Source: a virus. From it: DNA of 64,000 bases. A program made the translations under genes and the position numbers. Where the stretch lies: positions 32,001 to 96,000 of the IMG/VR virus record IMGVR_UViG_3300037423_000411. One strand, given 5' to 3'. The notes beneath the pieces are model-generated. The model was not told where the DNA came from, ran no database searches, and worked only from the letters and a program-made list of their open reading frames with translations. This document shows, piece by piece, positions 5,201 to 51,899 of this stretch (positions are counted from its first letter, which is position 1; the number at the start of each line of letters is the position of its first letter).

Positions 5201-5258
5201 TCCCGCTCCGAGCTTCGCGACATTGGGGATGACGCTTGTTGGATGGCTCGGAGCGGGA
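5201..5258 (-). ncRNA. solo TIGR-like unit
   Basis: 13-bp stem tcccgctccgagc/gctcggagcggga enclosing CCA-tccaacaag-CG-tcatcc-CCA-atgtcgcgaa. Confidence 0.7.
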
Positions 5259-5268
5259 CGATCTGGAT

Positions 5269-5523
5269 TCAGTTCAGCTTGGCGGTCTCGCGTGCGACGA
5301 TCTCGCCTGCCTTCTTCACGCCGTCCGCACGCTTCGCGAACTCGTGCACGTCGCCCCGAGTCTCGCTGGCCCAGTCGTTGACCAGATACTTGTTCCCTGT
5401 CAGTTCGACGTAGGGCTTCGGCATCGTCACCAGAACCGCGACGGTCTTGCCGTTGACGCTGAAGTGCTGCACGGTGCGCCCGTACTTGTCGCGAGTCTTG
5501 TACTGAGTGACGGTCGCGTTCAT
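5269..5523 (-). CDS. hypothetical early protein
   Basis: Promoter at 5592, CTCTCAC hairpin and GGAGG SD; ATG at 5523. Confidence 0.7.
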   Translation of the reverse strand: MNATVTQYKTRDKYGRTVQHFSVNGKTVAVLVTMPKPYVELTGNKYLVNDWASETRGDVHEFAKRADGVKKAGEIVARETAKLN

Positions 5524-5593
5524 TTGGTGCCTCCGAGGTGAGAGTCTCGATCTGCCCTTGCGAGTTCTATAGTGCCGTACTGGGTTACAGCTG

Positions 5594-6190
5594 TCAACCC
5601 TTCGAGGCGTATAACCAGCTGCCCCCGCTGTCGGCCTGCGTCTTGCCGGACAGAACATCGCTCACGGTTCCACGCACTCCCTTGGCAGGACCCTTCCAGC
5701 CATCGGCCTTGAAGATCTGACCCCACCGATCCACGAAGCAGTACACCGAGGACCCCAGAGCAGCGTCTGAACCCTCAGGTGTCAGTTCCTGCTGAACGAT
5801 GCGCTGGTACGTGCGGCCTCCCTTGCTCACGTAGAACCGGTGCTTGTAGGGCCACTTCTTGTCGGCGTCCTGATCGGTCAGGAACTGAGCCAACGCTTCG
5901 GCAGGATTGGCCTCGGCCCACGCCTTCTGCGTCTCCGCGTAGTGCTCGGGGTTGTTCTGCTCCAACGTCGTTGTGAACTGCGGGACGCCTGGCACGTGGT
6001 TCGGCACGAAGTCTTCCGGCTTCGGGGAACCGTACTGCCCATCGCTGCTACCTACGTGACCGATCTGCTCTTCGACCTTCTCGATGACGACGTAACTCGT
6101 GCCGTGCAACATCTCTTCTGCGATGGCGACCTTGGCGTCTTCGGTCAGGTGTGCGAGGACCTGCAGACCGTACTTCTCCAGCGTGTTCAT
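5594..6190 (-). CDS. hypothetical protein with conserved phage C-terminal domain
   Basis: SVYCFVDRWGQIFKADGWKGPAKGVRG resembles a motif common in small phage proteins; GAGGAGG SD. Confidence 0.7.
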   Translation of the reverse strand: MNTLEKYGLQVLAHLTEDAKVAIAEEMLHGTSYVVIEKVEEQIGHVGSSDGQYGSPKPEDFVPNHVPGVPQFTTTLEQNNPEHYAETQKAWAEANPAEALAQFLTDQDADKKWPYKHRFYVSKGGRTYQRIVQQELTPEGSDAALGSSVYCFVDRWGQIFKADGWKGPAKGVRGTVSDVLSGKTQADSGGSWLYASKG

Positions 6191-7101
6191 GATGTTTGCC
6201 TCCTCGTGAGAGAGATCTGATTCAGTACGCCTGAGCTTCGACGGCTGCTTTGACCAGCGTCTGCAGGGCCGCATCTACGATCTTCGGATCTGATCCCTTG
6301 GCGCCCGACAGGGCATACAGCGAACGACGCCCCAGGAACCCGTCAGAGCCCGCGTAGCGGTATTCCAAACCGAACTGTGCGGCGTAGTCGACCATTCCGA
6401 CAACCTCGTGCTGACGAACCGAGATCGTGACCACAACCGGCTTACCTTCGAAGGTGGCTACGTGCACGACTCTCATCGGTTCGCACGCTCTTCCTGAGCC
6501 TTGTGCAGTTCGGCCATCTTCTGCTGCAGCTGGTCGGTCATCGCGTCGCACGCGTTCTTGACCTCTTCGGCGGCCTTGGTCCAGGAGGCTTGCACATCCT
6601 GAGCAACCAGCTCCTGGTCGGCCTTTCGGCCACGAGCGGCCAGTTGAGCATCCGTCTCGGTCAACCGACGCCACCTGACGATGTCACGCCTGCGGTCGCT
6701 TGCTTTGCTCATGATTGCCTCTTTCGGGGTGAGAGACCCGTTGTTGCCCTGACTTCTTCAGGATGCCTCATTGGGTTACAGGTGTCAACCCTTAGACATG
6801 CTTGAATCGAGATCACCTGAGATTCGGTGTCTCGATCTGATGTTTCGGAGGCTTCGTCTCGCGGTGCCTGAAGTCGGTCTGTCCGTCTTGTGCGATGCGA
6901 TCTGATGTGCAAAGGCATGCCTAGAGGGGCTTGTCTGCCGACTGAATATGGCCTTGCACGAGCCTGTATGAAGTTGCCTTGAGTCCCCGCCTGTTCGGCC
7001 TTGATCTGCGGTACTTCTGAGCCTGAAAGTTGCCTCGGAAGGCTGTGGCGTCAGTTCTTTCGCGCTTGATCTGGCGTACTAAGTGCCCGACTGATCAGAA
7101 G

Positions 7102-7282
7102 CTTACCGCACGCGAGGTGATCCTGTGTAGAGGCGTCTCGTGTGGCGTGCGGTAAGTGCTCTGACCTGCAGGTTTGTCTCTCTCGCGTGGTGCATTGGTG
7201 TGTACGGAGGAGGTATGGCGAGAGGACGGATCTGAACTCACGCGGTGTGCATTGGGGTGTCTTGATCACGGATGGCGTGAGT
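7102..7282 (-). ncRNA. TIGR-like stem-loop guide array, 3 units
   Basis: Units 7102-7156, 7180-7224 and 7236-7282, each with its own stem and two CCA/ACA-anchored segments of about 9 nt. Confidence 0.72.
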
Positions 7283-8778
7283 GTGACTCGTTTTCTCTCA
7301 GAGTGACTCGTGAGGATCTCAGGAGGGGGTTTTTACGCTCAGCGGACCTTTCGGCCTCTCTTGTCCACATGCCTGCTTACTTCATGTGTGAACACTGCCT
7401 GATCGAGTTGAGCCTGATCTACCTGTGTGACCTTGAGGACTGGTTCGTGTCCTCTCTTCGCTACCAGCTTTGCGCCTAGTGCTAATCGTGCTTTGACTTG
7501 CTTGTGATAGTTCTCCGACTTCTTGTTCATCGTTGATTCCTTCCTGTGTGTTGACGGTTGTCACTCTCGTTTGAGTGAGAATGGCTTTTGGTAGTCACTT
7601 GATTATGAGAGTGACTGTCATGTTTTTCTCTACGGGTGTAGAGGGTTCGATCTGACTGCTTCGATGTTCGAGTTGATGAGTCGGCTGAGGTAGGTCCCTG
7701 CCTCCTGATACGAGTTTTCCCTGATGGCGAGCAAGAAACCCTGCAGCAGAGGGAGAGCTTCGTACGCGTTCAAGGTGGTGCGCAGTTGAAGCTGTACGGT
7801 GAGATCTACTGTCTGTTTCATCGTGAGGTGTGAGCACAGAGCGAGATCCTGTGCGGCGAGTGCCCAGCTGTAGTTCTCTTGAGGCATCCCCTGTGTAGCT
7901 GTCACTCCCCGAGCTTCCTTTCGAGATACTCCCTGAGCGTTGCTACCTGCCCTGCAGGGAGGTTCGGAGCGACTCTGTGCAGCCTGATCCAGTCGTAGTG
8001 CTGACCTGTCCTGATGATCGCGTGAGAGCCGCATGAGCAGTGTGCGCGTCTGAGATCTGTTCTCAGGATGTCGAGCCTGAGCAAGTTGTGCTCAAGTACG
8101 TGATCTGCTCGGTAGGGCTGCCTCATCTTCAGTACGTCCCTAGTGCGTCTTCGATGTCCTTGATGCCTTCGACCGTGTAGGTGGTGCCGTCAGCACAGAT
8201 CACCATCCAACGATCTGTGCTCTCGTAAATCGCCTTGTAGAACACTTGGCTTGTGAGATCCCACGAGTCGGTGAACCCGAGATCACTCAAGACTCTGCGC
8301 TGCTCAGGCGTGAAAGTGCTGTTGGACAGGCTCACTGCTTCTCCCACTGGTACGGGTAGGCATCGTGCATCATCCCCATGACGTCCTTGAAGCATCCACA
8401 GCACAAGTAGGCCGTGAGTGGGTGGAACGGGATATCGGTGGTCTCCTCGATCTTGTGAGCGGCTGGTGCGTTACAGCTGTTGCACCTCTCCTCACGCGCC
8501 CAGACAGGGAAAGGATGGTCTGCACGATCGTCGGTGATCATCTCGGGCTGCATGAGCTTGGCCCTGCTGATCAGGATGCTGTCGAGCAGAGGTGAGCCGG
8601 TGATGCTTGGCTTGGGTTGATCTGTCATCTCTGCAGCTCCCTGTTCGCCTTCTCCAGCGCTTTGTCGACCTGACTGAACCCACCCGCTTGTAACCCTCCA
8701 CAGCGACCACCAGAGCCCGTAGAAGCTGTCTGTAGTCCGCACCTGGTTCCCAGTCGTTGGTCATGCTCTACGTACGGC

Positions 8779-8808
8779 AAAACCCCCGAGGTTCGATCGG
8801 GGGTTTTG
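8779..8808. terminator. bidirectional intrinsic terminator
   Basis: aaaacccccga...tcgggggtttt inverted repeat with A/T tails. Confidence 0.75.
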
Positions 8809-8814
8809 AGATGG

Positions 8815-9051
8815 TCAGTACTTCGGCTGAACGGTGACAGTACGTCCTGCCTCACCGTTCGCGAACAGATCGGCCATGCCGTACTGGTCGGTCATGATCT
8901 CGTAGTGCAGTCCTGCGTTACGCGAAGGCGTGTACGCACGGATGAACTCTCCGGTGTAGGTATGCCCGTTGCCTGCGATGAACGCGACGCGAGCGCCCTT
9001 ACGGAAGCGCGGAGGCTTCGGACTGGTGCCTCGATGAGTGATGGTTGCCAT
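8815..9051 (-). CDS. small SH3-like protein, possible paralog of 4057-4248
   Basis: RFRKGARVAFIAGNGHTYTG aligns with FHNGQRVTFTAEDGKTYEG. Confidence 0.65.
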   Translation of the reverse strand: MATITHRGTSPKPPRFRKGARVAFIAGNGHTYTGEFIRAYTPSRNAGLHYEIMTDQYGMADLFANGEAGRTVTVQPKY

Positions 9052-10539
9052 GATCTGTCTCCTTTGAAGCGGTGAGAGTCACTTCTCGCAAGTGCTGTTG
9101 ATGATCGGGCCGTATTCCCACTTGGTGGTACCAGGGGTGTAGCGGTAGCCGTAGGTGGTCGTGGTGACTGTGTGACCGCCACTGGCCTTGCACGCGTTGT
9201 CGCTCTTGACCGCGAACACCACGCACACGCCGATCAGCGCGACACAGGCCACGATTCCTGCGATGAAGATCTTGGTGAACCAGTCCATTTTCCTGCCCCT
9301 AGCGGTGAGAGTCGCTGTCTTGCCCTTACCTCTCTATAGTGCCTGAGTAGTTGTCAACTGTCAACCCCCTACAGCCAACCAACTTCGGCCTCGTGAATGT
9401 CCAGCCAGCCGATGTACTCACCCTCGCGACTGAGGATGGTGAGGTTGCCTATCTGGTTCTTCACCAGACGTGCCTCAGGCTGTGCGTCCACGATCTCCTG
9501 TAGTGCCCTGATGAGTGCCTGAGGCTCACCGTAGAAGTACCTGTCAACAGGATCTCTCATACGGCCTCCTCACTCCTGATGACCTCGGCCTCCTTGATCT
9601 CGGACACCGAGGTAGGCAACCAATCTGTCTTCTGCGGGATGTTGGCGATAGCCCACCGACCGCCCGGCCGGTTCAGCTCTTCCTGCACCGACTGACCTGT
9701 CACCTCGACATCATCAGGCAGCACAAGCACGATGTCTGCAAACTCGACGCGCTGTGCTCGCACACGTAGCTTCACTTCAGTTCCACCCTCACATTGACCT
9801 GCCACACAATCGAGTCATCCTCGCGAGTGTGGTGCTGATATGCCTTCCCGTACACGTACACAAGCTGTTGTGAGTCGACCGCGAAGAATGCTTCGGCGGC
9901 CTGGTGCGCGTATGCCTCGATCTCGGATATCGACTGTCCGAGAGCCGCGAACTCGATGCTGTTGATGCTCATCATCAGAAACACCCGTTGTACTTCGCCA
10001 TGACAGCCGCGCGCTGATCAATCGAAAGAGGCGTCATGAAGTCGGCCACTACCTGTGCTCGTTGCATCGCGAGATCGGAGTACCAAGAACCGCCAGGCCC
10101 GTTGTAGGGCTTCCATTCGACCTCGACATTGTTGTCCTCGACTTGCACATGCAACGGGCCACCAGTGCCACAACCCTCAGTCGCGTACAGCAGGTCGATC
10201 GCATCCATGATCTCGCGTGCATTGTCAGGGAGATTGGTAGGTGCGCCGTACTCCTCTTTCCAGCATCCACAGCACATCAGTCAGGCAGCTTTCGGCTCTT
10301 GGCCTGCTGCCAGATCGCGGCAAGCCTCGACACGGTGTCCTGTGTGTCGCGCAGTCGGTCGTACTCCTCAGGCGTGAGCAGTGGCCTCGAATCGGCAAGG
10401 TCCATCACCGTGGCGAGTGCGTGTGCGTAGCTCCACAGCCCGCTCACAGCGAAGAGATCTGATTCCTTGATCACGAAGTACGTGCCTGGTGCGAGGATCT
10501 CACCATTCGCCTTCTTGACGACGTACTTCTCTTCGACTG

Positions 10540-11502
10540 CTACTTGATCGTCTGTTGACACAACGGACATGTTCCTGCCTCCTTCAGTGTCTCGTGTAGT
10601 TCCTGTTCGGCTTCCTGAATGTGGATCTCCAGGTCGTTGATCTCTCGTTCCTTCTCAGCCCTGAAAGCAACCTGTGCGTTGTACCGCTTCGCCCAGGACT
10701 CAACTTCGTTGATCTTGGCCTCGACCTCTTCAAGGTCTTGCATGTCCCCCGCAACCGACTTGAGGAGACTGGTCAGCTCATCGGCCTTGGCCTGAGCACT
10801 GACGATGAGACGCTGTGCGCTCGTGTAACGGCCTGAGAGGTCTTCAAGCTGAGTGATACGTGAGGAGGCGTCAATGGCCGCAGAAAGCAGCTCTCGTGCC
10901 TCCTCGACAGCCTTCTTGCGTGTGCCGAGATCGGCATACTCGGTCTTCACGCGAGTCACTGCCGCATCAGCGTCCTTGCGCCTGATACCTGCGAGCTTCA
11001 GCATCTCCTGTCGGCGCCTGTTGGCCTCTCTGGCGGCCTCGGCAAGCATGCTGACGTTGGTGAGATCGCCCAGCACCTTCGCGGTAGCTGAGCCTGTCTC
11101 TGCCAGCAACCAAGGGCTGTCGAACTGCGTGCTGAAGAACAGGTCAGGATCGCCCTCAGGCGTCTTCAAGACCTTCTGCACATCGGCAGGGACTGTGGTG
11201 CCGCACTTCGCGTACAGCTCACTGTGCCCGTGCTCGTTGACCAGCTTGTAAGAGCTGACACCCTTCCCACGCTCCAGCTCTACCGCTGTGCCGTCGCTGT
11301 ACGTCAGTCTGAGCTTGGCTGAGGTCTTTCCTTTGCTCACGTACCCAGGACTGATGCTGTTACGTGAGACGGCCTTCAGTGCCCTACCGAACGCGCTCTT
11401 GCCTGAGTTGGAGTGCCCAACGACCACAGTCAACTTGCCCAACGGGATCTTCACGTCGTACAAGGACTGGAAGCTCTCTACCGCAAGCTCGCTGATGGTC
11501 AT
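10540..11502 (-). CDS. SbcC/Rad50-like ATPase, N-terminal half
   Basis: SFQS...GHSNSGKS Walker A, Q-loop (FFSTQ), coiled coil and terminal CPLC zinc hook. Confidence 0.85.
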   Translation of the reverse strand: MTISELAVESFQSLYDVKIPLGKLTVVVGHSNSGKSAFGRALKAVSRNSISPGYVSKGKTSAKLRLTYSDGTAVELERGKGVSSYKLVNEHGHSELYAKCGTTVPADVQKVLKTPEGDPDLFFSTQFDSPWLLAETGSATAKVLGDLTNVSMLAEAAREANRRRQEMLKLAGIRRKDADAAVTRVKTEYADLGTRKKAVEEARELLSAAIDASSRITQLEDLSGRYTSAQRLIVSAQAKADELTSLLKSVAGDMQDLEEVEAKINEVESWAKRYNAQVAFRAEKEREINDLEIHIQEAEQELHETLKEAGTCPLCQQTIK

Positions 11503-11731
11503 GCTTTACGTACGGACTTCGAGCCTCAAATCGGCAGACAGTCCCAGTGCACGTACCCCTGCCACTTCTCATGGCGAGTGATCAGCTCACCTTCTTTGAC
11601 AGGGTGATCCCCTGCGTCACACCACGAATCGAACGGTGACGGGAACACCTCACGCCGGTGCCTCGGATGCATGTCATCGATGATGAGCAGATTGATCTTC
11701 TGGCCGTCCATGTTTCTGCCTCCTGAAATGA

Positions 11732-11793
11732 GTGTGAGGTCAGCTTCGGGACTTTATGGGTTTCGTTCCCTTGTCTGGAAGCTGACCTCACAC
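11732..11793 (-). ncRNA. solo TIGR-like unit
   Basis: Perfect 16-bp stem gtgtgaggtcagcttc enclosing CCA-gacaagggaa-CGAAACCCA-taaagtccc. Confidence 0.78.
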
Positions 11794-13064
11794 GGTGTTA
11801 CGGCACCCTACGACGAACCCACGGACTCGGCCAGACGACACCGAGCAGGTAGGACAGAGCCAGGAAGAACAACCCAGCACCGAGCAGGTTGAAGTGCGTC
11901 GAGACGTCCACTCCAAACGTGTAGAGGAAGAAACACACAGCCGCGAGGACTGCGGAAACCACGCCTGCCATGATTACCGCTTGGTCGGGGCAAACGACGG
12001 GAAGCTCTCGCCGCCTACCTCAGGGTTGGCGTCACGGAAGACGTAGCCGAGACCGTCCTCACCGCGTGCATCGATCAGCGCCTGCGCGTCTTCCTGAGCC
12101 TGCTTGGCCGCAGCTTCCGCGCCGTTGTCGGGGGTAGCCGTGGTGCCGTCCTGCACAGCAGCCTGCTCGGCCTGAGCTTCGGTCACGACTCCCTGATCGG
12201 TGGTCTCGGCCGTGCGAGTACCGGTCTGGTCAGCTTCGACCGTAGGTACGTCAGGTGCAGCAGGCGCCGAGTACGCCGGTTCCGCGTTGTCACGTGCCAT
12301 CTCAAAATCTCCTTGGTCTTCGACCATGACGGTGCGCCATGCTCTCACTGGATCGGCCCCTACTTGCTATGTATGGATCGCCCGTTTTCCTGTTCCCACG
12401 CCTTAAAACGACGCTTGTCGTGTAGAAAATTCTCCACGAACCGGGTACCGAGGCAACACCATTGACCAGCTTTCGCCCGGCAGGAAGGGCAGTCGACCTT
12501 CAAGGCAGGCTGATGCTCCAGTGTCCTCATCTTCACGAGCGCCTGCTCTGCCCACCGTGGCGGATCGATCAGAAAGGCCTTCCGCTTGCTCGACCACTCG
12601 ATGTTCAAGACAGTCTGCCGCTTCGCTGCCATCTCGCTGAGATCTGCAACCTCACGAGGCTTCAGCTCGATAGGATCGCCCTTCTTCACTTCTGCACCGT
12701 GTTCCGTATCGCCGCCACTCGTGCACTCCGTGTCTTCGTCTTACCGTTGTCACGCGGCATGTCCCGGTACTTCTCAGCCCAAGCCTCGAACCGTGTGCGC
12801 TCACCTTCGTGTTCCTCGATCGCCTGAACCAGGTGCAGAGGACAGTAGTTGCCGGACATCGCATCGATGATGAGCATGGAACGCGTACTGGCGGCCTTGA
12901 GTGCGAACTTCGCACGCTTCCCGCACCGGTAGGCATCCGCCTTCCTCGGGTCGCCTCGATCGGCCTTCTTCACCCAGCCTTTCTGAGCACAGCACTGCAC
13001 ATCACCCGTGACCTCTTTGACCCAAGGACTGGCGAGAATCATCTCCCGCCAGTCCTTGTACTCG

Positions 13065-13847
13065 TCACTTGACTGTCTGACCATCCGGCTCGTCCTTCAC
13101 TCCGTGCAAGCGCCGGGATTCCTTCCACAGGCCCTTGAGCATTTCCTTGGACATCACCCGCAACGCGTCCGCGTGCCGGTGCCCATCGTTCCACGGTGAG
13201 CCTGGCTGTGCGGGCTTGCCTGACGGCCCGCAACGCACGCAGGGGTTCACATGCAACTTGCCCTCGGTGTGTGCCTTGCGCTTGTCGTACACCTCACGAT
13301 TGCCGGAACGAAGCATGCTCTCGGCAATCAGATAGGCCCGCGTCTTCGCGGTGGTCGACCAGTTGGCCTTCACACCCTTCTTGCGTCGCATCGCGTTGCC
13401 TTCGGCGTCCACGTGCAAACCGCAGTAGGCCCACAGCTGCGAGACCGTGCGCGGCTGACCGGTGTTGCCGTTGATGTACGGGTCACCGATGACACCGAGC
13501 AGACGCGCGGCCTGCTTGTCGCCCAGGCCTTTGATGCTCTTCACGTACGGGCCGAGCTTGTCGTTCTTCATGCGCTTGGTGAGCTGCTTGATCGCGGAGT
13601 CTTCCAGCTCCTTGAGCCCGTCGACCATCTGCGTCATGTTGCGCACGTCAGGGTGATCTGCGGTCAATCCGAACCCACGCTCTTCACCGTCCGAGTCGAC
13701 GGCGGTACGCGTGAGCTGCCGCAACCGGTTCTCGTTGGCGAGCCGCAGCCCCTCGATGTCATCCAGGATGATGGACGACAGTGCCAGGAAGGGATCTGCG
13801 AACGTCGCGAATGCTACTTCCTGTGCTGCATCGACAGTGTCTGTCAT
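13065..13847 (-). CDS. Nop/IS110-related RNA-binding protein lacking a nuclease domain (TasA-like)
   Basis: Coiled coil (RLANENRL), SIKGLGDKQAARLLGVIGD, TVSQLWAYCGL, RRKKG...NW and HADALRVMSKEML motifs; no N-terminal DEDD RuvC; GGAGG SD before ATG 13847; adjacent guide array. Confidence 0.85.
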   Translation of the reverse strand: MTDTVDAAQEVAFATFADPFLALSSIILDDIEGLRLANENRLRQLTRTAVDSDGEERGFGLTADHPDVRNMTQMVDGLKELEDSAIKQLTKRMKNDKLGPYVKSIKGLGDKQAARLLGVIGDPYINGNTGQPRTVSQLWAYCGLHVDAEGNAMRRKKGVKANWSTTAKTRAYLIAESMLRSGNREVYDKRKAHTEGKLHVNPCVRCGPSGKPAQPGSPWNDGHRHADALRVMSKEMLKGLWKESRRLHGVKDEPDGQTVK

Positions 13848-13872
13848 TTGGGTGTGCCTCCTTCTTTGGTTG

Positions 13873-14089
13873 CCCTGAGCGCGGCGAAACCTGGGTATCA
13901 ATATCCTTTGGCTCAGGGAAGATTGTTGCCCAAGGCGATGAACTTTGAGTGCTGTGGGGAATTTGGCCTCGGGAGTTCTGGACTCAGCAGCGTGCACTCG
14001 ATGGGTGAGAGCAGATGTGTTGGCCGCTGAGAAGTTTGAGCGGGGCAGCTGACGAATACTCTTGGGCGATCCTCGGTTCCTGGTCAGCT
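13873..14089 (-). ncRNA. TIGR-like stem-loop guide array, 4 units, directly upstream of the TasA-like gene
   Basis: Units 13873-13918, 13929-13973, 13983-14031 and 14047-14089; period about 55-64 nt; e.g. ccctgagCCA-aaggatat-TGATACCCA-ggtttcgccgc-gctcaggg. Confidence 0.85.
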
Positions 14090-14094
14090 CAGAA

Positions 14095-14649
14095 TCAGGC
14101 AGCCGTTCCGAGCACCTTCAGGTGCACCTCGATCGGCAACTCTCCGAAGGTCTTCACGTCGTACTCGGTGAGCAGAGCCGCGTAGCCGTGGAACCGAGCC
14201 GCCCACGCCTTGTTGGCCTCGGCAAGCTTCTCGCGCTGCTTCGCCGCGTGCATGAGATCGTCGTACGTGCAGTCCTTGAGGAACTTGTAGTCACCCTGAC
14301 CGATGCTGATGCGATCACGCAGATGCTGCTGCCAGCCGTCACGAATCGCAGCGACCTTGGTGCTCGTGGTCGTGGACTTGATCCCACCAGCGTGCTTGCT
14401 GTTCACGATCTTCGGGAAAGCCGACGCCGGGGGCATGTTGGAACGCGTCCGCGTCGTGCCCAGGTAGTGCCGGACGTAGTCGATCAGCAGCACTTCGAGC
14501 ACCTCGTGATAACGCGCCTTCGGGATACGTTTCAGTATCTCCTGCATGATCTCGTGAACATCGGTGAGATCGGTGTTGTTCAGGATGTCCGTCAGGATTC
14601 CCCTGAGCGTGAGCGTCGACATCAGTTCCTCCTGCAGTTGTGCCACCAT
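14095..14649 (-). CDS. hypothetical protein embedded in the TIGR-Tas-like locus
   Basis: GGAGG SD; flanked on both sides by guide units. Confidence 0.8.
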   Translation of the reverse strand: MVAQLQEELMSTLTLRGILTDILNNTDLTDVHEIMQEILKRIPKARYHEVLEVLLIDYVRHYLGTTRTRSNMPPASAFPKIVNSKHAGGIKSTTTSTKVAAIRDGWQQHLRDRISIGQGDYKFLKDCTYDDLMHAAKQREKLAEANKAWAARFHGYAALLTEYDVKTFGELPIEVHLKVLGTAA

Positions 14650-14675
14650 TTCGTTTACCTCCTACAACGTTTTAA

Positions 14676-14728
14676 TTCCCGACAACAAAGGTCGTATGGG
14701 TAACCGAGAGGAGCTTGGTCGCCGGGAA
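14676..14728 (-). ncRNA. solo TIGR-like unit
   Basis: ttcccggcgaCCA-agctcctct-CGGTTACCCA-tacgaccttt-gttgtcgggaa. Confidence 0.78.
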
Positions 14729-15258
14729 ACCCCTGGTCATGCTTCCTGAGTGTTCGTCCAGCCTGCGTAAGTCACTTCAGCCTCGTAACCACAGTTGACG
14801 CACGTGTGTGTGGTCTCCGGTGCCTCAGTAAGGTCTTCGGCCTCGTACACACCCTCAGGAGCGACGAACTCGACCTCTTGTGTGGTCTTGCACATGGCAC
14901 AGTCCACGAGCTGTGAGAGCCGCAGAGGCTCCTGGTCTCGGTCTTCAGGGTCTTCGTCCACACGTGCCATGAGATCTAACGTTCCTCGCCGGTAGTAGTC
15001 ACTGAATTCTGGCGTCTTCATCAGGCTCGCCTGCCGGGTTGTAGAGCACCCAACCAACCTGCATCGCCGCAGAGATCATGCGATCTACGATCTCTTCACA
15101 CATGTCCATCCGCTCACCCACGAACTCGTTGCTGTCGCCGTACTGGTCCTCAAAGAGAGACTCGGCCATCGCCTTGCGTGCAGGATGATGGCGTACGGCA
15201 CACAGCTGGCAGCCTTCCGGGCTGCCGTACTCCTCAGGGTCGTGCAAGCAGTCGACGT

Positions 15259-16155
15259 TCACTTGGTGGTCTTCTTCTCGTCGTCCACAACAACCACTTT
15301 GGTCACGATGCCGTCCTTGACCAACATCTTCTCCTTCGCGGGAGACCAGTCAGGCTCCTTCTTCTGGCGTTCCTTGACCGCGAACGTCGACCACGCCCGA
15401 ACATGTCCCTTGTAGGTACACGGCCAGACCGTGCCGTCTTCCAGCACGAAGACACGATCGCCCTCTGCACCCGCAGGAGACGCCGACTTGATCGGAGCGG
15501 ACAGACCTGCAGGCCAGTCCCCTGTGATCAGCTGCTGAGCCGTGTAGTAGCTGTTGGACGACAGTGACGTCTGTCCAGGCTCGGTCTCGGACTGGTAGTA
15601 GGTGCTTCCGCTCCAGGAAGAGCCGACAGGCTTGGTCGCGAGCTGTGTGCTCTGCTCTTCGAGTGGCTGCAGGTAGCCCAGCGCCATCAACAGACAAGCC
15701 AGCGACGGCCGGTACTTCTTTTCCAGCCGCTTCCGCGTGTACTCAGGCAGGTCAGCCAGACGGTCTGGACGGAGATTGTGCAACAGATCGGCGGCCTTGA
15801 CGCGCATAGCGCCCTCGCCTGCCGCGATGACGCGCTTGAGGTACTTGGTCTGCTCCTCCTGAGGGTTCTTGGTGACGGCCCACACGATACGTACCACCGA
15901 AGCAGGGAAACCTTCGTCCAGCAGCGTCTTGAAGGTCACCTTCGGGACGTCTTCGACCACATCGTGCAGGAACGCTGCCGCGATCTCTTCGATCGAGCCT
16001 CCCAGCAGTCGTACGCCCTGCGAGACTGACACCAGATGATTGAGATACGGCTGCTTGAGCTTGTCCGTCTGACCCTTGTGATGCTCGGCGGCGAACTCAC
16101 GAGCATGCGCGACCAGCGTCAAGCGCCCGATATCAAGAGTCGCTTCAGAGGTCAT
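15259..16155 (-). CDS. HD-domain hydrolase (RelA/SpoT hydrolase, Mesh1-like) with C-terminal extension
   Basis: HKGQTDK...PYLNHL, AAFLHDVVED and VKAADLLHNL motifs. Confidence 0.85.
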   Translation of the reverse strand: MTSEATLDIGRLTLVAHAREFAAEHHKGQTDKLKQPYLNHLVSVSQGVRLLGGSIEEIAAAFLHDVVEDVPKVTFKTLLDEGFPASVVRIVWAVTKNPQEEQTKYLKRVIAAGEGAMRVKAADLLHNLRPDRLADLPEYTRKRLEKKYRPSLACLLMALGYLQPLEEQSTQLATKPVGSSWSGSTYYQSETEPGQTSLSSNSYYTAQQLITGDWPAGLSAPIKSASPAGAEGDRVFVLEDGTVWPCTYKGHVRAWSTFAVKERQKKEPDWSPAKEKMLVKDGIVTKVVVVDDEKKTTK

Positions 16156-16295
16156 CGTCCGTGACCTCCCAGCAGGTAGGGCAGGAACACCAGAATCGCC
16201 GCAGCCTGCATCACAGCGCCTGACGCGAGGTGATGACGCGGTTTGCGGTGCCGTGCGCCCTGAGGCTTGCGATGGCGGCCTGTGGTCTTGAACAT
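16152..16295 (-). CDS. small peptide with tandem RHRKP motifs and a hydrophobic segment
   Basis: MFKTTGRHRKPQGARHRKPRHHLASGAVMQAAAILVFLPYLLGGHGR; GGAGGAG SD; ATGA overlap with the HD gene. Confidence 0.55.
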   Translation of the reverse strand: MFKTTGRHRKPQGARHRKPRHHLASGAVMQAAAILVFLPYLLGGHGR

Positions 16296-16993
16296 GTCTC
16301 CTCCTTCACTTCGCTCGCTGAGCGGATCGGATGGCCTTTTCCTGCTCCTTCAAGAGCATGCGTGCTGCATCCCGTACGACGCGAGCCGCTTCAGGAGAGA
16401 TCTCCACAAGCTCTTGAGCTGTCTTGGTGAGGACACGAATCTCCACCGCACGATCGTGCAGCTCTGAATCCGAGTCCAGGTAGGTAGGGAGCAACGGGTT
16501 CATCACTTCGTCACCCGCACAACCCACGCAGCGCCGAAGGTGCGCACCTCGCATTTGTAGCCGTGAGCGGTCAGGACAGTGGCGTACTTCTCGGCCCACT
16601 TCTTGGTCTCGATATACCGATTCGAGTGACTGAGGGAGCTAGGCCAGTACTGCACCTGCACAGTTCCAGGCACATACTGCTCAGTCTTGAAGCCTGCGGA
16701 GTACTCACGCAAACCCTTGATACGGCTCTTCTTGGCTTCGGAACGCGTCATGCCTGCGCTATTCAGCACTCGGCTGACCTGCGATGCTGTTGCCATCTCA
16801 ACGCACCTCGTAAGCACGGTTGCCAACCCACACGACATAAGGGTGCTTCTTCGTGAAGGCCTTCTTCGAGCCCAAGACCTTCCAGAAAGACCGGCCGTTG
16901 TCTTCAGTGAACCGCAGTCCGAACCACATTTTCCTACCTCCTACGCGCGGTGAGAGATGCGCCTTTCGACACACATACTGCCGTAGAAGGTTG

Positions 16994-17293
16994 TCACCTG
17001 TCAATACCAAGCAAGTTGTCTATCTCGGACCGCTCCACCTTGTGACCCGGCCACGTCGCATGAGTGAGCGGGCTGATGAGCTTGCAGGCGAGCATATGCG
17101 CACAGTCCTCGACCTTGGCAGGGCAGTCACAGTGCCACAATCCGACGCCACCGAACCTGACTACGTACGGGTCCTCGGACGAGCCGTAGACCTCGAACTC
17201 GGCCGTGCCACGCTGCAGGCTGTGGTCAATCACCTTGACCTTGCCTTCGAGAAGATACCTGTGCGCCTTCTCCTCGCGCGTCTCACGGCTCAT
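16994..17293 (-). CDS. SWIM zinc-finger protein
   Basis: YVV...WHCDCP...CAH (CxC-Xn-CxH). Confidence 0.75.
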   Translation of the reverse strand: MSRETREEKAHRYLLEGKVKVIDHSLQRGTAEFEVYGSSEDPYVVRFGGVGLWHCDCPAKVEDCAHMLACKLISPLTHATWPGHKVERSEIDNLLGIDR

Positions 17294-24997: not shown

Positions 24998-25092
24998 TCC
25001 CTTCGTCTGGTGAGAGGCGCGAAGAACCAGGGCTTACGCCGCCGTTGAATGGCCTCTCATCACACGTACGGACTTCGGAGACAAGATCTGCA

Positions 25093-25136
25093 CAGAGGCG
25101 AATGCCTTAGGGGTGACGCTCCTTGTATGGCCTCTG
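25093..25136 (-). ncRNA. solo TIGR-like unit (a degenerate second unit lies at 25011-25059)
   Basis: cagaggCCA-tacaaggag-CGTCACCCC-taaggcattc-gcctctg. Confidence 0.62.
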
Positions 25137-25191
25137 AACAGCACAACACCCCCGCAGCGTCCATTACGGGGGTGTTGAGTCTTGTTGAGGA

Positions 25192-36641: not shown

Positions 36642-36710
36642 TTCTGCCTCCAGTGTGAGAGAGTCGGTGTTCGCTCCGACAAGAAGAACGGTATCGGAGG
36701 GGGTGACAAC

Positions 36711-36768
36711 TGTCAACCCCTGAGCGGGTGACACTGGGTGCCGAATTGCAATGGCTCAGGGGCTGACA
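36711..36768 (-). ncRNA. solo TIGR-like unit overlapping a -35 box
   Basis: tgtcagcccctgagCCA-ttgcaatt-CGGCACCCA-gtgtcaccc-gctcaggggttgaca. Confidence 0.75.
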
Positions 36769-36924
36769 GCAGAAACCCGCTTCGAAGTCCTCGACAGCAC
36801 GGGGTCTGTGCCGGGTGACATCTCTGCGGGTTCCTGGTGCCTGAGGCGCGTGCCCTACGCGTATGAGGAGACGCATCTAAGCGAACTCTTCGGGACAACT
36901 CTCCTCAGGAAACTGTGAACGAGG

Positions 36925-40655: not shown

Positions 40656-40658
40656 GAC

Positions 40659-41318: not shown

Positions 41319-41333
41319 ACTCGGCCCTTCCTG

Positions 41334-41768: not shown

Positions 41769-42132
41769 TACTCAACGCTCCCTACGGTCTGGTCTTCGTC
41801 CGAGGGAACCTTGTTCGCCAGGCGCTCGTCCTCAGCGGCAGCAAGCCGCTTCTGGTGCTCAGCGCTGAACGCACGGCATCGGTCCTTGGCCGCTTCTGCC
41901 AGCTCCGCTGCTTTGGTCCACTCGTCCATCAGATCGTCGTCGCTGAGCGACGTCACATCCACCTCGATGTCGAGATGAGCCTTCAGGTTGTCGCTGATGC
42001 CCTCAGCCATTCCGATCCTCCTCGTGCTCATCGGAGAGATCGGCAGATACCTAGAACTGGTCTACCTAGACATGGTGAGCCCCCGAGAGGCAGCGGATTG
42101 CTGGGAAGCATTCGGCCTTCGGGGGCTCACTT

Positions 42133-42193
42133 ACGAGTTTAGCTGAACGTAACCTCACTGGGTTTCGAAGGTGCGTGGGTTCAGCCGACTCGT
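42133..42193 (-). ncRNA. solo TIGR-like unit
   Basis: gagtcggctgaacCCA-cgcacctt-CGAAACCCA-gtgaggttac-gttcagctaaactc. Confidence 0.75.
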
Positions 42194-42245
42194 TCTCGAC
42201 ACAGACGACATTGGATGAGAGATGCACCACCCAGCGTCTTCGTGA

Positions 42246-45338: not shown

Positions 45339-46098
45339 CGACCGCCTCCTGGTGAGAGTTCCTGACACTGCGAACGAGGACTTAGACGCCTCCGTGAACA
45401 CCTCGCAGTGTCAGGCGTAAACTGTTGCTTGCGGCATCATTGCACCAAACGATTGAAACGCCAAGCTCCGACTCGTTTTCCCAAGTCCGTAAAGGATTCA
45501 GGATCTGCTTGGTCTCGTTTCATACCCCACGTCAGTCCGTCATCAGGAGTCGTCACCGGCCTCGACGTCGACCGGTGTGTGGTCGGTTCCGACCACCTCT
45601 CGGCCTCCATCGACAGCTTGCGATCGTTGATCTCTCGATGTGCCTCGGCGCGCTCCGAGCGCGCCTGCACACGGACCATCTTGTCCTGCAGCTTCCCGTC
45701 CTCGCGCAGCCAGCGCTGGTACTCCTCGCGCGGACTCAGAGCACGATCGGGATCTGCCTTGTAGAGCGCCTTGTATTCAGGACATTCGAGGACGTGTGCG
45801 TTGATCTTCTTGCACGAGACGTCCGTTTCCCCGCAGCCTGCACAGCGTCCTTGCGGCATCAGCCGTAGTACGCCTTCAGGTGCTTACCGAGCTGGTACAA
45901 CCCCACCCCCGCGATGAGAGCTGCCAGAACGATCCCCAGTCTCTTCACTTTTTGCCTTTCTTGACGATGCTGTTGACCTCGGCCCGCTCAGCAGCTCGCC
46001 TCACCACGCCGTCCAGTCTCGATCTGACTGTCGTGCTGTCCTTCTTCTTCGGCGTGACGAACTTGCTGAGCGGGTTCTTCGGCTTCTTGTGTTCAGGT

Positions 46099-49367: not shown

Positions 49368-49416
49368 CGTATTTACTTCCCCTCAAAAGAGACCCCGACT
49401 CGGGTTGAGTCGGGGT

Positions 49417-49517
49417 TGGTGCCCGGAGTCGGACTCGAACCGACACTCGCTCCTTTCAGCCTCCCCCGCCCAGGGAGACCTACTGGGTGCTGCTCTGACC
49501 TATTGAGCTACCCGGGA
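49417..49517 (-). tRNA. tRNA-like RNA with atypical anticodon/variable region
   Basis: TAGCTC-AATAGGTCA-GAGC D arm, GTCGG-TTCGAGT-CCGAC T arm, acceptor stem and ACCA end; no canonical 7-nt anticodon loop. Confidence 0.7.
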
Positions 49518-49521
49518 CAAG

Positions 49522-49571
49522 CGAGAGAGGCGCGGACTATTTGGTAGCCGTGCTCGATGTGGCCTCTCTCG
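49522..49571 (-). ncRNA. solo TIGR-like unit immediately upstream of the tRNA-like RNA
   Basis: cgagagaggCCA-catcgagca-CGGCTACCA-aatagtccgc-gcctctctcg. Confidence 0.75.
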
Positions 49572-51854
49572 GATCGATCAGCCCGCGATCGCGGCATGGA
49601 TGCCGTGATTCGTCCCCCCACAGCTGCACTCACAGTCCGGACTAACCGAGCCCATGCAGTTCTCATCACATGGGATGAACTTGCCTGCCTTCTTGGCCTT
49701 GGCGTACGACACAGCGACCAGCGCTTCGGCGTCGGCCTTGACCTTGCTCCAGATGGCCTTCTCGATCGCAGAGCCCTTCTTCTGAGCCCACGCCTCCGAC
49801 CGCTGAGCGCTGTTGTAGACCTGCACCGGCGTGTAGGTCTGCCCGTTCTTGGTCATGTGCTGCAAGGCCTTCAGTGCCTCGCTCGCGTTCGCGTACTTGC
49901 GCATCTTCTTACCTCCTTCGGGGTGAGAGTCCCGTCCTTTGCTTCCGAAGTTAGCGGAGCTAGGAGACAGTTGTCAACCTCTCGTCTCGAACTTGGCCTT
50001 CAGCCGCTCGTATTCCTTGCGCTCTTTGTCCGACTGCGCCTGCTGTTGCTTCTGTGCAAGCTTCTCAGCCTTCTCCGTCCACTCGGTGGTCAGCCGTCGC
50101 TTGCACGCCTCCTGATCGGTGACGAAGTCCTCGCTGAGCCAACCGGAGCACGAATCACCGTCGTAGTACTCGCCGCTGAGGAAGATCCTCCCGGCGCCGC
50201 CGTGGTCTACCTCGCGCCAGGTGGTTGAGTAGTTCGGGATCACCGGAGCACGAGATTGGCCGATAACGTCTCGCCAGGGGTACGGCTCACCGTAGGGCTG
50301 AGAAGGCCGAGGATGTGCCTCGCGCCAACGCTGGTCGAACTCCTTGACGAAAACGTTCCACGCCTCGATGTGGGGAGCGAGTTCGGCTACAAGGGCCTCA
50401 GAGAGGTCTTCGACCTCCTTCTTCTTCGTCTCCAGCTCTTCGATCGCTTTCAGTATGTTCATGCTTCCTCCTAACCAGTGATCTCAGGTGAGTAGTACTC
50501 GGGCAACGGGATCGGACCGTCGTACATCAGGCAAGGACACTTCAGTCCTTTCGACGCCATGACAGACATGTACGTCGAGACAGCGCACTCACCCTTGCCA
50601 CCGTCACGATGCATCCCTCTGGCATGTCCGCACGTACAGACAGGCTTGGGCGCGTCAGCCAACTTCTTACGGTGCCGCTTGTCACGCTCTCCTTGAACGA
50701 ACAGCGTGATCACCACTCCGAGGATGACCCCGAACATGAACAGCGTGGCACCTTCGGCCATCACTGCACCTCCAAGAGCTGCATCGCGATCTTCGCGCCC
50801 TTGTAGGCCGCGTTCGCAGGCTCGTCTTCGTCCCTGAACGCCACGACAGGATTGTCGTAGAACTTGTCGTCGTTAACGTCGTAAAACGCTGTGAACTGAC
50901 GCTCGATCTCCTCACGCACCTTCATCAGCCACTCAGCGAGTGAGCTGGGGCCGGGATGGATCACCTCGTGCACGTCGAACATCCGCCCAGCTTCCGGGCC
51001 GCCGTCCTGCGTCAGCTTCTCGCCTACGTGATACGCGCCTTCCTTGAACGAGAAGAAGCCGTAGAACCGAGGTCCTTCGCGGAACGTGTTGTCCTCGGAA
51101 TCGTGAGAAGTCCCAATGACGTATTGCATGTTTTCACCCCCTCCGTTCCAGGTAAGGCTGCTTCGGAGTGTTCCAGATACGGTTCACCGAGAAGTGCAGC
51201 GGGCCGAACGAGAAGCTCACGAACCACCGATCCTCGGACCAGTCCGACCCGTACTGACGCTCGTAGTTCGGCCCAAGACCCCAGCTGTCCCACAGCAGGC
51301 TGAGAGAGACCCAGTAGTGCGGGTCGTTGTAGCTCGAATACCACTCCCAGAAGGCTTCACCATCAGGGTTGCGCATCGATCGACGCTCAAGCCACGACCA
51401 GTTGTGCGGTACGAAGTCCTCCACGTCCTCGTCGGTGTGCAGTCGATGACCTTCGATCTCTTGTTCGGTCTTCCAGCAGTACTGCTCATCGAAGTTCAGC
51501 CGACGCACGATGACGTCTGACTCGCCCCGAACCGTTGCCGTACCCCACATCAGAGGGTGCCCACCTTCCCTTGCGCCTGCTCGTCCAGTTCCGCAGCCGC
51601 GACAGGCTTTCGAGACAACGCCTGCCGGACCTTCTTGCCCCAGGTCACGTAGCTGTAGAACGCAAAGCTCACGTAACCGAACCGCCACCACGAATCCACG
51701 TAGTCCAACGGAACCTCAGAAACGACCTTGACGCCAGATGGCGCGGTCGTGTGGTACGTCTTCATCGAAGCCTCCTCGGTGAGAGGTGAGAGTCCCTCTA
51801 CATGAAGAGTAGCCCTGAGGGTGACAACTGTCAACTTCAGGGCTACTGCTTGAG

Positions 51855-51899
51855 CACGGCGCGACTACACTTGGGCATCCTCAACACAATGGCGCCGTG
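51855..51899 (-). ncRNA. solo TIGR-like unit
   Basis: cacggcgCCA-ttgtgttga-GGATGCCCA-agtgtagtc-gcgccgtg. Confidence 0.72.

What the first reader, a model, noticed from the sequence alone, without database searches (positions are those of the whole stretch)
5201..51899. Genome-dispersed solo guide units in intergenic gaps
Single units with the same grammar sit at 5201, 11732, 14676, 25093, 36711, 42133, 49522 and 51855, with degenerate candidates at 6907-6959 and 25011-25059. Two carry the loop CGAAACCCA. With the arrays this gives about 22 units. Inference: guides are excised from different operon transcripts, like snoRNAs from host transcripts, so their expression would follow early, middle or late timing, and they may spread individually. 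I do not know whether such dispersal has been described.
Basis: partly seen in the sequence, partly recalled or inferred. Interest (0 to 1): 0.88.

Follow-up and report, generated by a model that had tools for sequence, protein, structure and literature searches.

The report
Scattered TIGR guide-RNA hairpins in phage
A 134-kb soil phage with one nuclease-free TIGR-Tas protein keeps many of its two-part guide-RNA hairpins singly between ordinary genes, up to 38 kb from that protein's gene, a layout that the papers I searched do not describe.

Summary
The hairpins are real. All eight main sites and both "degenerate" sites lie in intergenic gaps on the transcribed (minus) strand. Seven of the eight have the full grammar: variable stem, C|CA, about 9-10 nt, (C)G, an A-rich linker, CCA, 9-10 nt, G-stem. 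This is the stem-loop TIGR guide (tigRNA) design.

- Site 25093 and its neighbour 25011 form a doublet, and both read CCU instead of the inner CCA.
- Site 6907 is not separable from chance.

The grammar is strand-specific: 35 sense hits, 8 antisense, 2-9 in shuffles. It also travels with the phage's Tas protein family. That protein (window 13065-13847) matches TasR structure 9MTY at E=3.6e-14. In 80 metagenome loci holding homologues I found 469 units on the tas strand and 28 opposite.

Relatives usually keep their units within 2 kb of tas (125 against 2). This phage has 20 good units farther away, and one other phage (G001) has 5.

Three solos have no room for their own promoter, so they must ride operon mRNAs. 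None has a terminator's short loop and U-tract.

Expression, processing, Tas binding and targets are all untested. Earlier notes of this scan report the same scattered layout in several other phage genomes. I rate it a new variant of a known kind.

The parts
5200..5259 (-). Solo unit. 14-bp stem, 32-nt loop of the form CA-N9-CG-linker-CCA-N10. Lies 9 nt after a stop codon and 27 nt before the next start codon.
   Evidence: Strict scan. Context. Model R2 E=0.051. Fold z=-7.1.
11732..11793 (-). Solo unit. 16-bp stem, loop contains CGAAACCCA. Lies 4 nt after a stop codon, 20 nt before the next start codon and 1.3 kb from tas.
   Evidence: R2 E=0.13. Fold z=-9.0.
14676..14728 (-). Solo unit. 11-pair stem including G-U pairs. 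Lies 8 nt after a stop codon and 26 nt before the 184-aa gene that precedes the tas array.
   Evidence: R2 E=3.1, which is weak. Fold z=-3.1.
25088..25141 (-). Variant unit (core 25093-25136). The 5' CCA and closing pairs are intact, but the inner box reads CCU instead of CCA. It forms a doublet with 25011.
   Evidence: stem 7. R2 E=3.5. Fold z=-2.9.
25008..25062 (-). Variant unit (core 25011-25060). 8-bp stem, 33-nt loop, inner box CCU.
   Evidence: this hairpin class gives 35 sense against 2 antisense. Fold z=-2.5. Not found by R2 at E<=10.
36709..36770 (-). Solo unit. 17-pair stem whose 3' arm contains the TTGACA -35 box of the next promoter. Lies 22.9 kb from tas.
   Evidence: R2 E=4.4e-4. 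Fold z=-6.3.
42133..42194 (-). Solo unit. Two-part stem (6 + 8 pairs), loop contains CGAAACCCA, first CCA shifted by one base. Lies 28.3 kb from tas.
   Evidence: R2 E=3.2e-3 at 42141-42186.. Fold z=-2.85.
49522..49571 (-). Solo unit. 10-bp stem. Lies 6 nt after a stop codon and 4 nt before a tRNA-like element.
   Evidence: R2 E=0.63. Fold z=-4.1.
51855..51899 (-). Solo unit. 8-bp stem. Lies 7 nt after a stop codon and 20 nt upstream of the promoter TTGACA at 51834.
   Evidence: R2 E=0.012. Fold z=-2.25.
6907..6959 (-). Doubtful candidate. Bulged stem, 37-nt loop, inner box CCU.
   Evidence: Fold z=-1.4. Not found by R2 at E<=10. Picked up only by the loose scan, which has no power.
4331..4387 (-). 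13-bp stem. Lies 13 nt upstream of the promoter at 4317.
   Evidence: R2 E=5.6e-4.
13065..13847 (-). tas gene. 260-aa nuclease-free Tas protein (TasA type).
   Evidence: phmmer against PDB: 9mty_A (TasR) E=3.6e-14, TasH E=6.4e-5. Foldseek: 9mty_A E=1.5e-8, 247 aligned columns.
13873..14089 (-). Array of four units directly upstream of tas (13873, 13929, 13983, 14047).
1365..1765 (-). Seven-unit array 11 kb from tas. Part of the training set and used for comparison.
7102..7282 (-). Three-unit array inside a 917-nt non-coding stretch.
49420..49517 (-). tRNA-like element directly after unit 49522. Acceptor, D and T arms are intact, with 32 nt where the 7-nt anticodon loop should be. ARAGORN does not call it.
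   Evidence: Rfam tRNA, 36.7 bits. ARAGORN finds none.
49392..49416 (-). Canonical hairpin-plus-U terminator that closes the unit and tRNA-like cassette.

Best explanation
The scattered hairpins are single-copy genes for stem-loop tigRNAs of this phage's one TIGR-TasA system.

Anatomy. Each unit is an RNA hairpin with a variable stem. The stem closes a loop that holds two 9-10-nt spacers. Each spacer is preceded by box C (CCA, whose first C pairs with the following G) and followed by a (C)G that stands where box D (UG) does. An A-rich linker sits between the two halves.

Proposed mechanism.
- The units have no promoters of their own. They are transcribed as parts of phage operon mRNAs, either between two genes or at the end of an operon just ahead of the next promoter.
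- Host RNases are inferred to cut them out. In one case cleavage at an adjacent tRNA-like element would do this.
- The released units are inferred to load into the nuclease-free TasA dimer.
- The two spacers then pair with opposite strands of an 18-20-bp DNA site, and the bound complex blocks transcription there.

Shown here: the anatomy, the strand bias, the position in operons, the Tas protein family, and the link between this grammar and Tas homologues elsewhere.

Inferred: transcription, excision, loading and repression. The targets are unknown.
For: 1. A real, strand-specific family.
- Strict grammar gives 35 sense, 8 antisense and 2-9 in 20 shuffles.
- Hairpin plus 5' CCA with stem >=9 gives 27 sense and 0 antisense.
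- Model R2, trained on 15 array units and none of the claimed solos, gives 25 hits (24 distinct) at E<=0.2, all on the sense strand. They include 36709, 42133, 51855, 5200 and 11732.

2. Stems covary. 99.5% of cells are paired, all 8 pairs show double changes, and 0 of 500 shuffles reach the observed score. That alignment was fitted to the model.

3. The phage has a Tas protein: 9MTY TasR at E=3.6e-14 by sequence and E=1.5e-8 by fold, over almost the whole 260 aa. 9MTY is the TasR RNP of Faure 2025.

4. The grammar travels with Tas homologues.
- 469 units on the tas strand against 28 opposite in 80 metagenome loci, 489.5 kb in all.
- 3 units upstream of the homologue in Mycobacterium phage Pinto.
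- 4 units near the homologue in Rhodococcus phage Peregrin.

5. A second complete phage, G001 (82.6 kb, Tas 40% identical), has 5 good distal units. They follow the local gene strand, including one in a minus-strand gene block.

6. The solos at 5200, 11732 and 14676 lie 4-9 nt after a stop codon and 20-27 nt before the next start codon.

7. Every unit has its own spacer pair.

8. Published work fits the design and the proposed action.
- Stem-loop arrays have palindromic stems and two 8-12-nt spacers flanked by boxes C and D (Faure 2025, PMC12045711, passages read).
- TasA and catalytically dead TasR repress transcription (Xu 2026 preprint, sections 5, 7, 11 and 12 read).
Against: - No RNA evidence exists. 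No listed run is RNA.
- The CUU motif that Xu 2026 places at the processing site is present at 9 of 23 array units but only 1 of 10 solos, against a background of 0.10. The solos may therefore be processed differently or not at all.
- Model E-values are weak for 49522 (0.63), 14676 (3.1) and 25093 (3.5).
- Three sites (25093, 25011, 6907) read CCU at the inner box. Only 10 of 470 hairpins in relatives do so.
- Box D is mostly CG here, not the published UG.
- No target was found. A + 0-2 nt + revcomp(B) gave 14 hits at 3 mismatches in the phage genome against 11 for mispaired controls, with no excess in 686 kb of related loci.
- Three solos (36709, 51855, 4331) sit at operon ends, where a terminator role cannot be excluded.
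Confidence: 0.72

Rival explanations
1. The solo hairpins are only transcription terminators or 3'-end stabilisers of operon mRNAs. In this reading their likeness to guide units does not matter for function.
For: - Solo stems are long and G+C-rich, with fold z-scores down to -9.
- They are longer than array stems: mean 12.9 against 10.0 pairs, p=0.014, n=9 and 23, with one doubtful unit dropped.
- 36709, 51855 and 4331 lie directly upstream of promoters, which means at operon ends.
- From my own knowledge, many actinobacterial terminators lack a U-tract.
Against: - None of the ten sites matches the terminator pattern. Terminator-like sites occur at shuffle level: 15 against 12.3, 12 against 11.2, and 16 against 10.7.
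- The loops are 28-33 nt and keep the CCA...G...CCA...G grammar, which termination does not need.
- 5200, 11732 and 14676 lie 20-27 nt ahead of the next start codon inside operons, so termination there would silence the downstream genes.
- A canonical terminator stands right beside one unit (49392-49416), so the phage has ordinary terminators available.
Confidence: 0.08
2. The solos are decaying relics of former arrays, left behind by genome rearrangement and no longer used.
For: - 25093, 25011 and 6907 carry CCU at the inner box, and 6907 has a bulged stem.
- The solos lack the CUU motif.
- Relatives keep nearly all their units within 2 kb of tas: 125 against 2.
Against: - Seven solos keep perfect stems of 8-17 pairs and both boxes.
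- All are in the sense orientation and in intergenic gaps, although only 11.8% of the genome is intergenic.
- A second phage shows the same layout, with units following the local gene strand.
Confidence: 0.08
3. The solos act in cis as TasA-binding or RNase-entry sites on the phage's own mRNAs. They would set mRNA cleavage, stability or translation of neighbouring genes and would not supply DNA-targeting guides.
For: - They lie between genes, close to ribosome-binding sites.
- The 3' arms of several stems include the next promoter's -35 box.
- No DNA target was found.
Against: - A pure protein-binding site would not need two different variable 9-10-nt segments in every copy.
- The geometry equals that of array units next to tas, both here and in relatives.
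Confidence: 0.1

Closest known systems
Stem-loop TIGR arrays with TasA or dead TasR (PlTasA, BlTasA, CsTasR). Sources: Faure et al. 2025, PMC12045711; Xu et al. 2026, bioRxiv 10.64898/2026.09.09.750476; Guan et al. 2026, bioRxiv 10.64898/2026.08.11.744272 (abstract only).
   Same: - Variable palindromic stem and two short spacers, each after a CCA box C and before a G.
- Conservation confined to the stem bases next to the boxes.
- A nuclease-free Nop-type Tas protein.
- A phage host.
   Different: - Published units lie in arrays upstream of, downstream of or inside tas. Here single units lie 0.8-38 kb away, between unrelated genes.
- Box D is mostly CG, not UG.
- The CUU processing motif is absent from 9 of 10 solos.
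Archaeal box C/D sRNA genes, which are dispersed and often co-transcribed with flanking ORFs (recalled from my own knowledge, not checked here).
   Same: - Small dual-guide RNAs bound by a Nop-domain protein.
- Scattered through the genome.
- Many lack their own promoter.
   Different: - No k-turn boxes (RUGAUGA / CUGA) and no L7Ae or fibrillarin partner.
- No Rfam family other than tRNA matched in the window.
- The expected target is DNA, not rRNA.
Solo or orphan vrRNAs of VIPR systems on satellites and phages (Lopez et al. 2026, bioRxiv 10.64898/2026.10.15.759431; abstract and sections 3 and 8 read).
   Same: Single guide-RNA genes on mobile elements, away from or without the effector gene, used for transcriptional silencing.
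   Different: It is an unrelated system, with GGYNN repeats, a pseudoknot tail and a non-contiguous code. Those solos stand in place of a deleted effector locus, whereas here the effector is present.
Intrinsic (rho-independent) terminators.
   Same: G+C-rich hairpins in intergenic gaps, some at operon ends.
   Different: The loops are 28-33 nt with conserved boxes, there is no U-tract, and several lie inside operons.

Membership tests
TIGR-Tas, stem-loop type | A Tas protein with the Nop-like (IS110 C-terminal-like) RNA-binding domain is encoded in the same genome. | tested here: met
   Window 13065-13847(-). 9mty_A E=3.6e-14 and TasH E=6.4e-5 by sequence. Foldseek 9mty_A E=1.5e-8 with TMq 0.60. 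Pfam Nop itself gave no hit.
TIGR-Tas, stem-loop type | Each unit holds two 8-12-nt spacers, each flanked by box C (CCA) and a box D guanine. | tested here: met
   Met by 7 of the 10 claimed sites: 6 in the strict scan plus 42133 with a one-base offset. Not met at the inner box by 25093, 25011 and 6907, which read CCU. Box D is mostly CG, not UG.
TIGR-Tas, stem-loop type | A variable palindromic stem closes each unit. | tested here: met
   99.5% of cells paired and 8 of 8 pairs with double changes. Fold z from -2.25 to -9.0 for nine sites and -1.4 for 6907.
TIGR-Tas, stem-loop type | Units stand in tandem arrays beside or inside the tas gene. | tested here: not met
   The sites in question are single, or a doublet at 25011/25093, and lie 0.8-38 kb from tas. 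The genome does have a four-unit array directly upstream of tas.
TIGR-Tas, stem-loop type | The same unit design accompanies orthologous Tas genes elsewhere. | tested here: met
   469 units on the tas strand against 28 opposite in 80 loci. Also Pinto, G001 and Peregrin.
TIGR-Tas, stem-loop type | A CUU motif at the base of the stem, the reported processing site. | tested here: not met
   Present at 1 of 10 solos, 9 of 23 array units, against a background of 0.10.
TIGR-Tas, stem-loop type | Units are transcribed, processed and bound by Tas, and they guide DNA binding. | not testable with these tools
   No RNA run was listed. No target was found in silico.
Intrinsic terminator | A short-loop G+C-rich hairpin followed by a U-tract. 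| tested here: not met
   None of the ten sites appears among the 43 terminator-like sites listed. One of the 43 lies inside the array unit at 1714-1765.
Box C/D sRNA | K-turn-forming box C (RUGAUGA) and box D (CUGA), or a match to a curated family. | tested here: not met
   The Rfam gathering scan of the window returned only the tRNA-like hit.

The most novel reading that the evidence does not exclude
Guide production and mRNA punctuation are one process. In this reading the scattered units are cleavage points that cut the phage's long operon transcripts into segments, much as tRNAs punctuate mitochondrial transcripts.
- Each cut releases a guide, and the amount of that guide is set by the operon it rides in.
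- TasA, or an adjacent tRNA-like element, marks the cut.
The phage would then use one RNA-protein system both to shape its own transcriptome and to silence about 45 DNA sites in its host or in rival elements.
Probability: 0.15. Interest if true: 0.8.

Novelty: new variant of a known kind. Interest (0 to 1): 0.55.

Why it matters
The natural role and the biogenesis of TIGR-Tas are open questions in the papers I read. By its authors' description, the published survey tool looks around tas loci.

If guides also sit singly inside operons tens of kilobases away, several things follow:
- Surveys undercount guides. Here 20 of 23 good units lie more than 2 kb from tas.
- Natural target searches work from incomplete spacer sets.
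- Processing cannot depend on array context.

A phage with one nuclease-free TasA and about 45 different guides, spread over roughly ten transcription units, is a concrete system for study. It can be used to ask what a repressor-type TIGR system silences during infection, and how a stem-loop guide is released from an mRNA.

Tried and rejected
Steps that led nowhere:
- **Close relatives for orthologous sites.** Megablast of the polymerase gene against the phage collection found nothing. The best protein match was 29.6% identical (Microbacterium phage Magritte). One distant IMG/VR contig turned up.
- **Sequencing runs.** No RNA holder was listed among 5 DNA runs.
- **Strain variation.** Contigs of four soil or rhizosphere runs laid on window 1-20000 were identical to the window wherever they were listed. 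Two of them span units 5200 and 14676. They gave no variation to use.
- **Target searches.** Spacer A + 0-2 nt + reverse complement of spacer B, and the opposite geometry as a control, gave no excess over mispaired controls. This held in the phage genome and in 686 kb of related loci.
- **Shared spacers with relatives.** None above a shuffled control.
- **Loose grammar scan.** It had no discriminating power (48 sense, 53 antisense, 30-39 in shuffles), so I rejected it as support for the degenerate sites.
- **First alignment.** MAFFT misaligned the units (A1). I replaced it with a gap-free five-unit seed (A2) and model-based realignment.
- **Pfam Nop model.** No hit in the genome. I rejected this as evidence against a Tas protein once PDB sequence and fold matches came in.
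- **Host-genome search for targets.** I considered it and did not run it. An exact 18-mer is expected by chance tens of times in that collection.

Rows dropped:
- Two strict hits in structural genes (genome 124003 and 98554; stems 7 and 6) were left out.
- The doubtful unit at genome 11458 was left out of the stem-length test.

Limits on the literature claim:
- I did not request the supplements of Faure 2025 and Xu 2026. Their figures S4, S12 and S13 and the TIGRSafari tables may bear on whether dispersal is in print.
- Peregrin was scanned over 48 of its 133 kb only.

Full report
**Setting.** The window is bases 32001-96000 of a 133,696-bp virus record with direct terminal repeats. The genome is 59.7% G+C. 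In my codon-usage gene call, 215 of 219 genes lie on the minus strand, so the minus strand is the sense strand. No close relative exists in the phage collection. Megablast with the polymerase gene found nothing, and the best protein match was 29.6% identical. Contigs identical to the window occur in four further soil or rhizosphere DNA runs, so the sequence is not a one-off assembly product.

**The observation.** A scan for perfect stems of at least 7 bp around loops of 22-40 nt found 416 hairpins, against 171-188 in three shuffles. It also exposed a family with a shared design.
- Read on the sense strand, the design is: variable stem ending in G-C, then C|CA, about 9-10 nt, (C)G, an A-rich linker of 3-5 nt, (C)CCA, 9-10 nt, and a C followed by the G that opens the 3' arm (logos).
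- A strict form of this grammar gives 35 hits on the sense strand, 8 on the other strand, and 2-9 in 20 dinucleotide shuffles.
- I dropped two of the 35 as probable chance hits. They have stems of 6 and 7 and lie inside structural genes.
- Asking only for a hairpin with a 5' CCA, a closing G and a 28-34-nt loop gives 27 against 0 at stem >=9, 35 against 2 at >=8, and 45 against 10 at >=7.
- A looser definition had no power: 48 sense, 53 antisense, 30-39 in shuffles.

**The ten claimed sites.**
- All lie in gaps between called genes. Only 11.8% of the genome is intergenic.
- Six meet the strict grammar: 5200, 11732, 14676, 36709, 49522 and 51855.
- 42133 has the same parts with the first CCA shifted by one base.
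- 25093 and 25011 are neighbours 32 nt apart, and both read CCU at the inner box.
- 6907 has a bulged stem and a 37-nt loop.
- Fold z-scores against 200 shuffles: -9.0 (11732), -7.1 (5200), -6.3 (36709), -4.1 (49522), -3.1 (14676), -2.9 (25093), -2.85 (42133), -2.5 (25011), -2.25 (51855) and -1.4 (6907).
- CGAAACCCA occurs twice on the sense strand, in 11732 and 42133.
- The list misses a solo at 4331-4387.

**An independent model.** To avoid circularity I built a covariance model from array units only. It started from a five-unit seed (A2, R1) and was then rebuilt from 15 array hits (A4, R2). None of the claimed solos was in the training set.
- On the window with filters off it finds 36709 (E=4.4e-4), 4331 (5.6e-4), 42133 (3.2e-3), 51855 (0.012), 5200 (0.051) and 11732 (0.13).
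- It finds 49522 (0.63), 14676 (3.1) and 25093 (3.5) only weakly.
- It does not find 25011 or 6907 at E<=10.
- In the structural half of the genome nothing scores better than E=0.75.
- Over 96.4 kb, all 25 hits at E<=0.2 (24 distinct) are on the sense strand.
- On that model-fitted alignment, 99.5% of stem cells pair and all 8 pairs show changes on both sides. No shuffle out of 500 reaches the observed covariation.

**What the units are.** The design is that of stem-loop TIGR arrays: palindromic variable stems around two 8-12-nt spacers flanked by box C (CCA) and box D (Faure 2025, PMC12045711, passages read).
I checked it myself.
- The 260-aa product, which starts at 13847, matches the TasR chain of PDB 9MTY at E=3.6e-14 and TasH at E=6.4e-5. 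9MTY is the TasR RNP of Faure 2025.
- An AlphaFold model (mean pLDDT 78.8) has TasR and TasH as its ten best Foldseek matches, with IS621 recombinases next.
- The protein has no extra nuclease domain, so it is of the TasA type.
- Pfam's Nop model does not see it.

**The grammar travels with this protein family.**
- Tblastn finds homologues in 91 phage records, 83 of them mycobacteriophages.
- In phage Pinto, three strict units fill the gap upstream of the homologue.
- In Rhodococcus phage Peregrin, four units lie beside it. I scanned 48 of its 133 kb.
- In 80 metagenome loci with homologues (489.5 kb), 469 strict units lie on the tas strand and 28 on the other strand.
- Of 470 hairpins there, 424 have the inner CCA and 10 have CCT. 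The CCU of 25093, 25011 and 6907 is therefore a rare variant.

**How unusual the dispersal is.**
- In 22 metagenome loci of at least 7 kb, 125 good units (stem >=9, loop 28-34, second spacer 9-11) lie within 2 kb of tas. Only 2, both in one locus, lie farther away, in 211 kb of surveyed flank.
- In this phage, by my hand count with the same criteria, 3 lie within 2 kb and 20 lie beyond.
- One other complete phage (G001, 82.6 kb, Tas 40% identical) has 9 near and 5 beyond.
- G001's distal units include an intergenic solo on the plus strand among plus-strand genes and one on the minus strand among minus-strand genes. Orientation therefore follows local transcription.
- Three of G001's distal units lie inside a called 594-aa ORF with a Gp3-like domain.

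**Operon context.** The phage has its own promoter family on the sense strand: gGGTTGACAgyTGTaACC, a -10 box like ACTATAGA, and then a leader word ACTCTCAC before the ribosome-binding site. ACTCTCAC occurs 18 times on the sense strand and 0 times on the other.
- Relative to these promoters, 36709, 51855 and 4331 sit at operon ends. The 3' arm of 36709 contains the next -35 box.
- 5200, 11732, 14676, the 25011/25093 doublet, 42133 and 49522 sit between genes.
- For 5200, 11732 and 14676 the gaps are 9, 4 and 8 nt after the stop codon and 27, 20 and 26 nt before the next start codon. That leaves no room for a promoter.
- Unit 49522 is followed after 4 nt by a tRNA-like element (Rfam tRNA, 36.7 bits, with 32 nt in place of the anticodon loop) and then by a canonical terminator.

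**Terminator rival.** None of the ten sites is among the 43 terminator-like sites found. Those occur at shuffle level. Solo stems are longer than array stems, 12.9 against 10.0 pairs (p=0.014). This could serve autonomous folding inside mRNAs or a second role at operon ends.

**Points against, or left open.**
- The CUU motif that Xu 2026 reports at processing sites (section 11 read) occurs at 9 of 23 array units but at 1 of 10 solos.
- No RNA run is available.
- No target was found in the phage itself or in related loci.
- Spacer pairs are all different, and none is shared with relatives above chance.
- The target geometry I used was derived from the cleavage description in Faure 2025. It is my inference.

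**Literature.**
- The words orphan, scatter, dispers and solo do not occur in Faure 2025 or Xu 2026.
- Xu 2026 describes units upstream of, downstream of and inside tas, found by a tool that works around tas loci (section 5).
- A library search for tigRNA together with orphan, dispersed and similar words listed no TIGR paper. It did surface a preprint on solo guide RNAs of the unrelated VIPR system.
- I did not see any supplements.
- Earlier notes of this scan, which are unchecked AI notes, report scattered TIGR units in several other phage genomes. Within the scan the layout is therefore recurrent.

**Verdict.** The units are best read as single-copy stem-loop tigRNA genes carried inside operon transcripts of a phage with one TasA. 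This is a new layout of a known system. Expression, excision, Tas loading and targets remain to be shown.

Noticed in passing
window 49420-49517 (-), with a terminator at 49392-49416 (-): A tRNA-like element with intact acceptor, D and T arms and an encoded CCA, but with 32 nt where the anticodon loop should be. Rfam scores it 36.7 bits and ARAGORN does not call it. It starts 4 nt after unit 49522 and is followed by a canonical terminator.
   Followed up: partly
window 14095-14649 (-); L014 8633-9187 (+): A 184-aa protein encoded just upstream of the tas array. It has a 184-aa homologue (31% identity, E=3e-11) in the same position (gene, array, tas) in the unrelated phage G001. It may be a conserved tas-associated gene. 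Pfam gave only a weak hit.
   Followed up: partly
sense strand, for example window 51834, 49977, 36716, 33785, 33266, 21285, 9364, 6788, 5597, 4317 and 756: A phage-specific promoter family: gGGTTGACAgyTGTaACC, a -10 box like ACTATAGA, then the leader word ACTCTCAC before the ribosome-binding site. ACTCTCAC occurs 18 times on the sense strand and 0 times on the other. The standard sigma-70 scan finds none of these promoters.
   Followed up: partly
genome 21087-21148, 23171-23225 and 31874-31934; window 36709-36770: In four units the 3' stem arm runs into the GGGTTGAC of the next promoter's -35 box, and the 5' arm carries the matching TCAACCC. The guide hairpin and the promoter therefore share bases.
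   Followed up: no
genome 20912-20985 (-): The only tRNA that ARAGORN calls in the genome (tRNA-Ala). It lies about 100 nt downstream of the promoter that overlaps the unit at 21087.
   Followed up: no
L020 3350-5134 (-), which is G001 77720-79504: Three guide-type units lie inside a called 594-aa ORF whose N-terminal part is a Gp3-like recombination directionality factor domain (Pfam E=5e-30). Either the units are embedded in a non-tas gene or the ORF is miscalled.
   Followed up: no
alignment A5: Several Tas homologues (P0009, P0018, P0027, P0084) carry a roughly 35-residue low-complexity insert at one position and long N-terminal extensions. These coincide with intragenic guide units in loci such as L014. 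They fit the intragenic tigRNAs that Xu 2026 describes.
   Followed up: no
window 42075-42131 (-) and 45361-45415 (-): Two further long-stem hairpins (12-13 bp) with 29-32-nt loops in intergenic gaps. Both lack the 5' CCA, so they are either a different kind of element or badly degraded units.
   Followed up: no
Mycobacterium phage Pinto, L015 44112-44357 (-): Cluster A (Fromanvirus) mycobacteriophages carry a Tas homologue annotated as transposase or DNA-binding protein. Three guide-type hairpins sit in the 335-nt gap upstream of it. These are cultured phages in which the system could be tested.
   Followed up: partly
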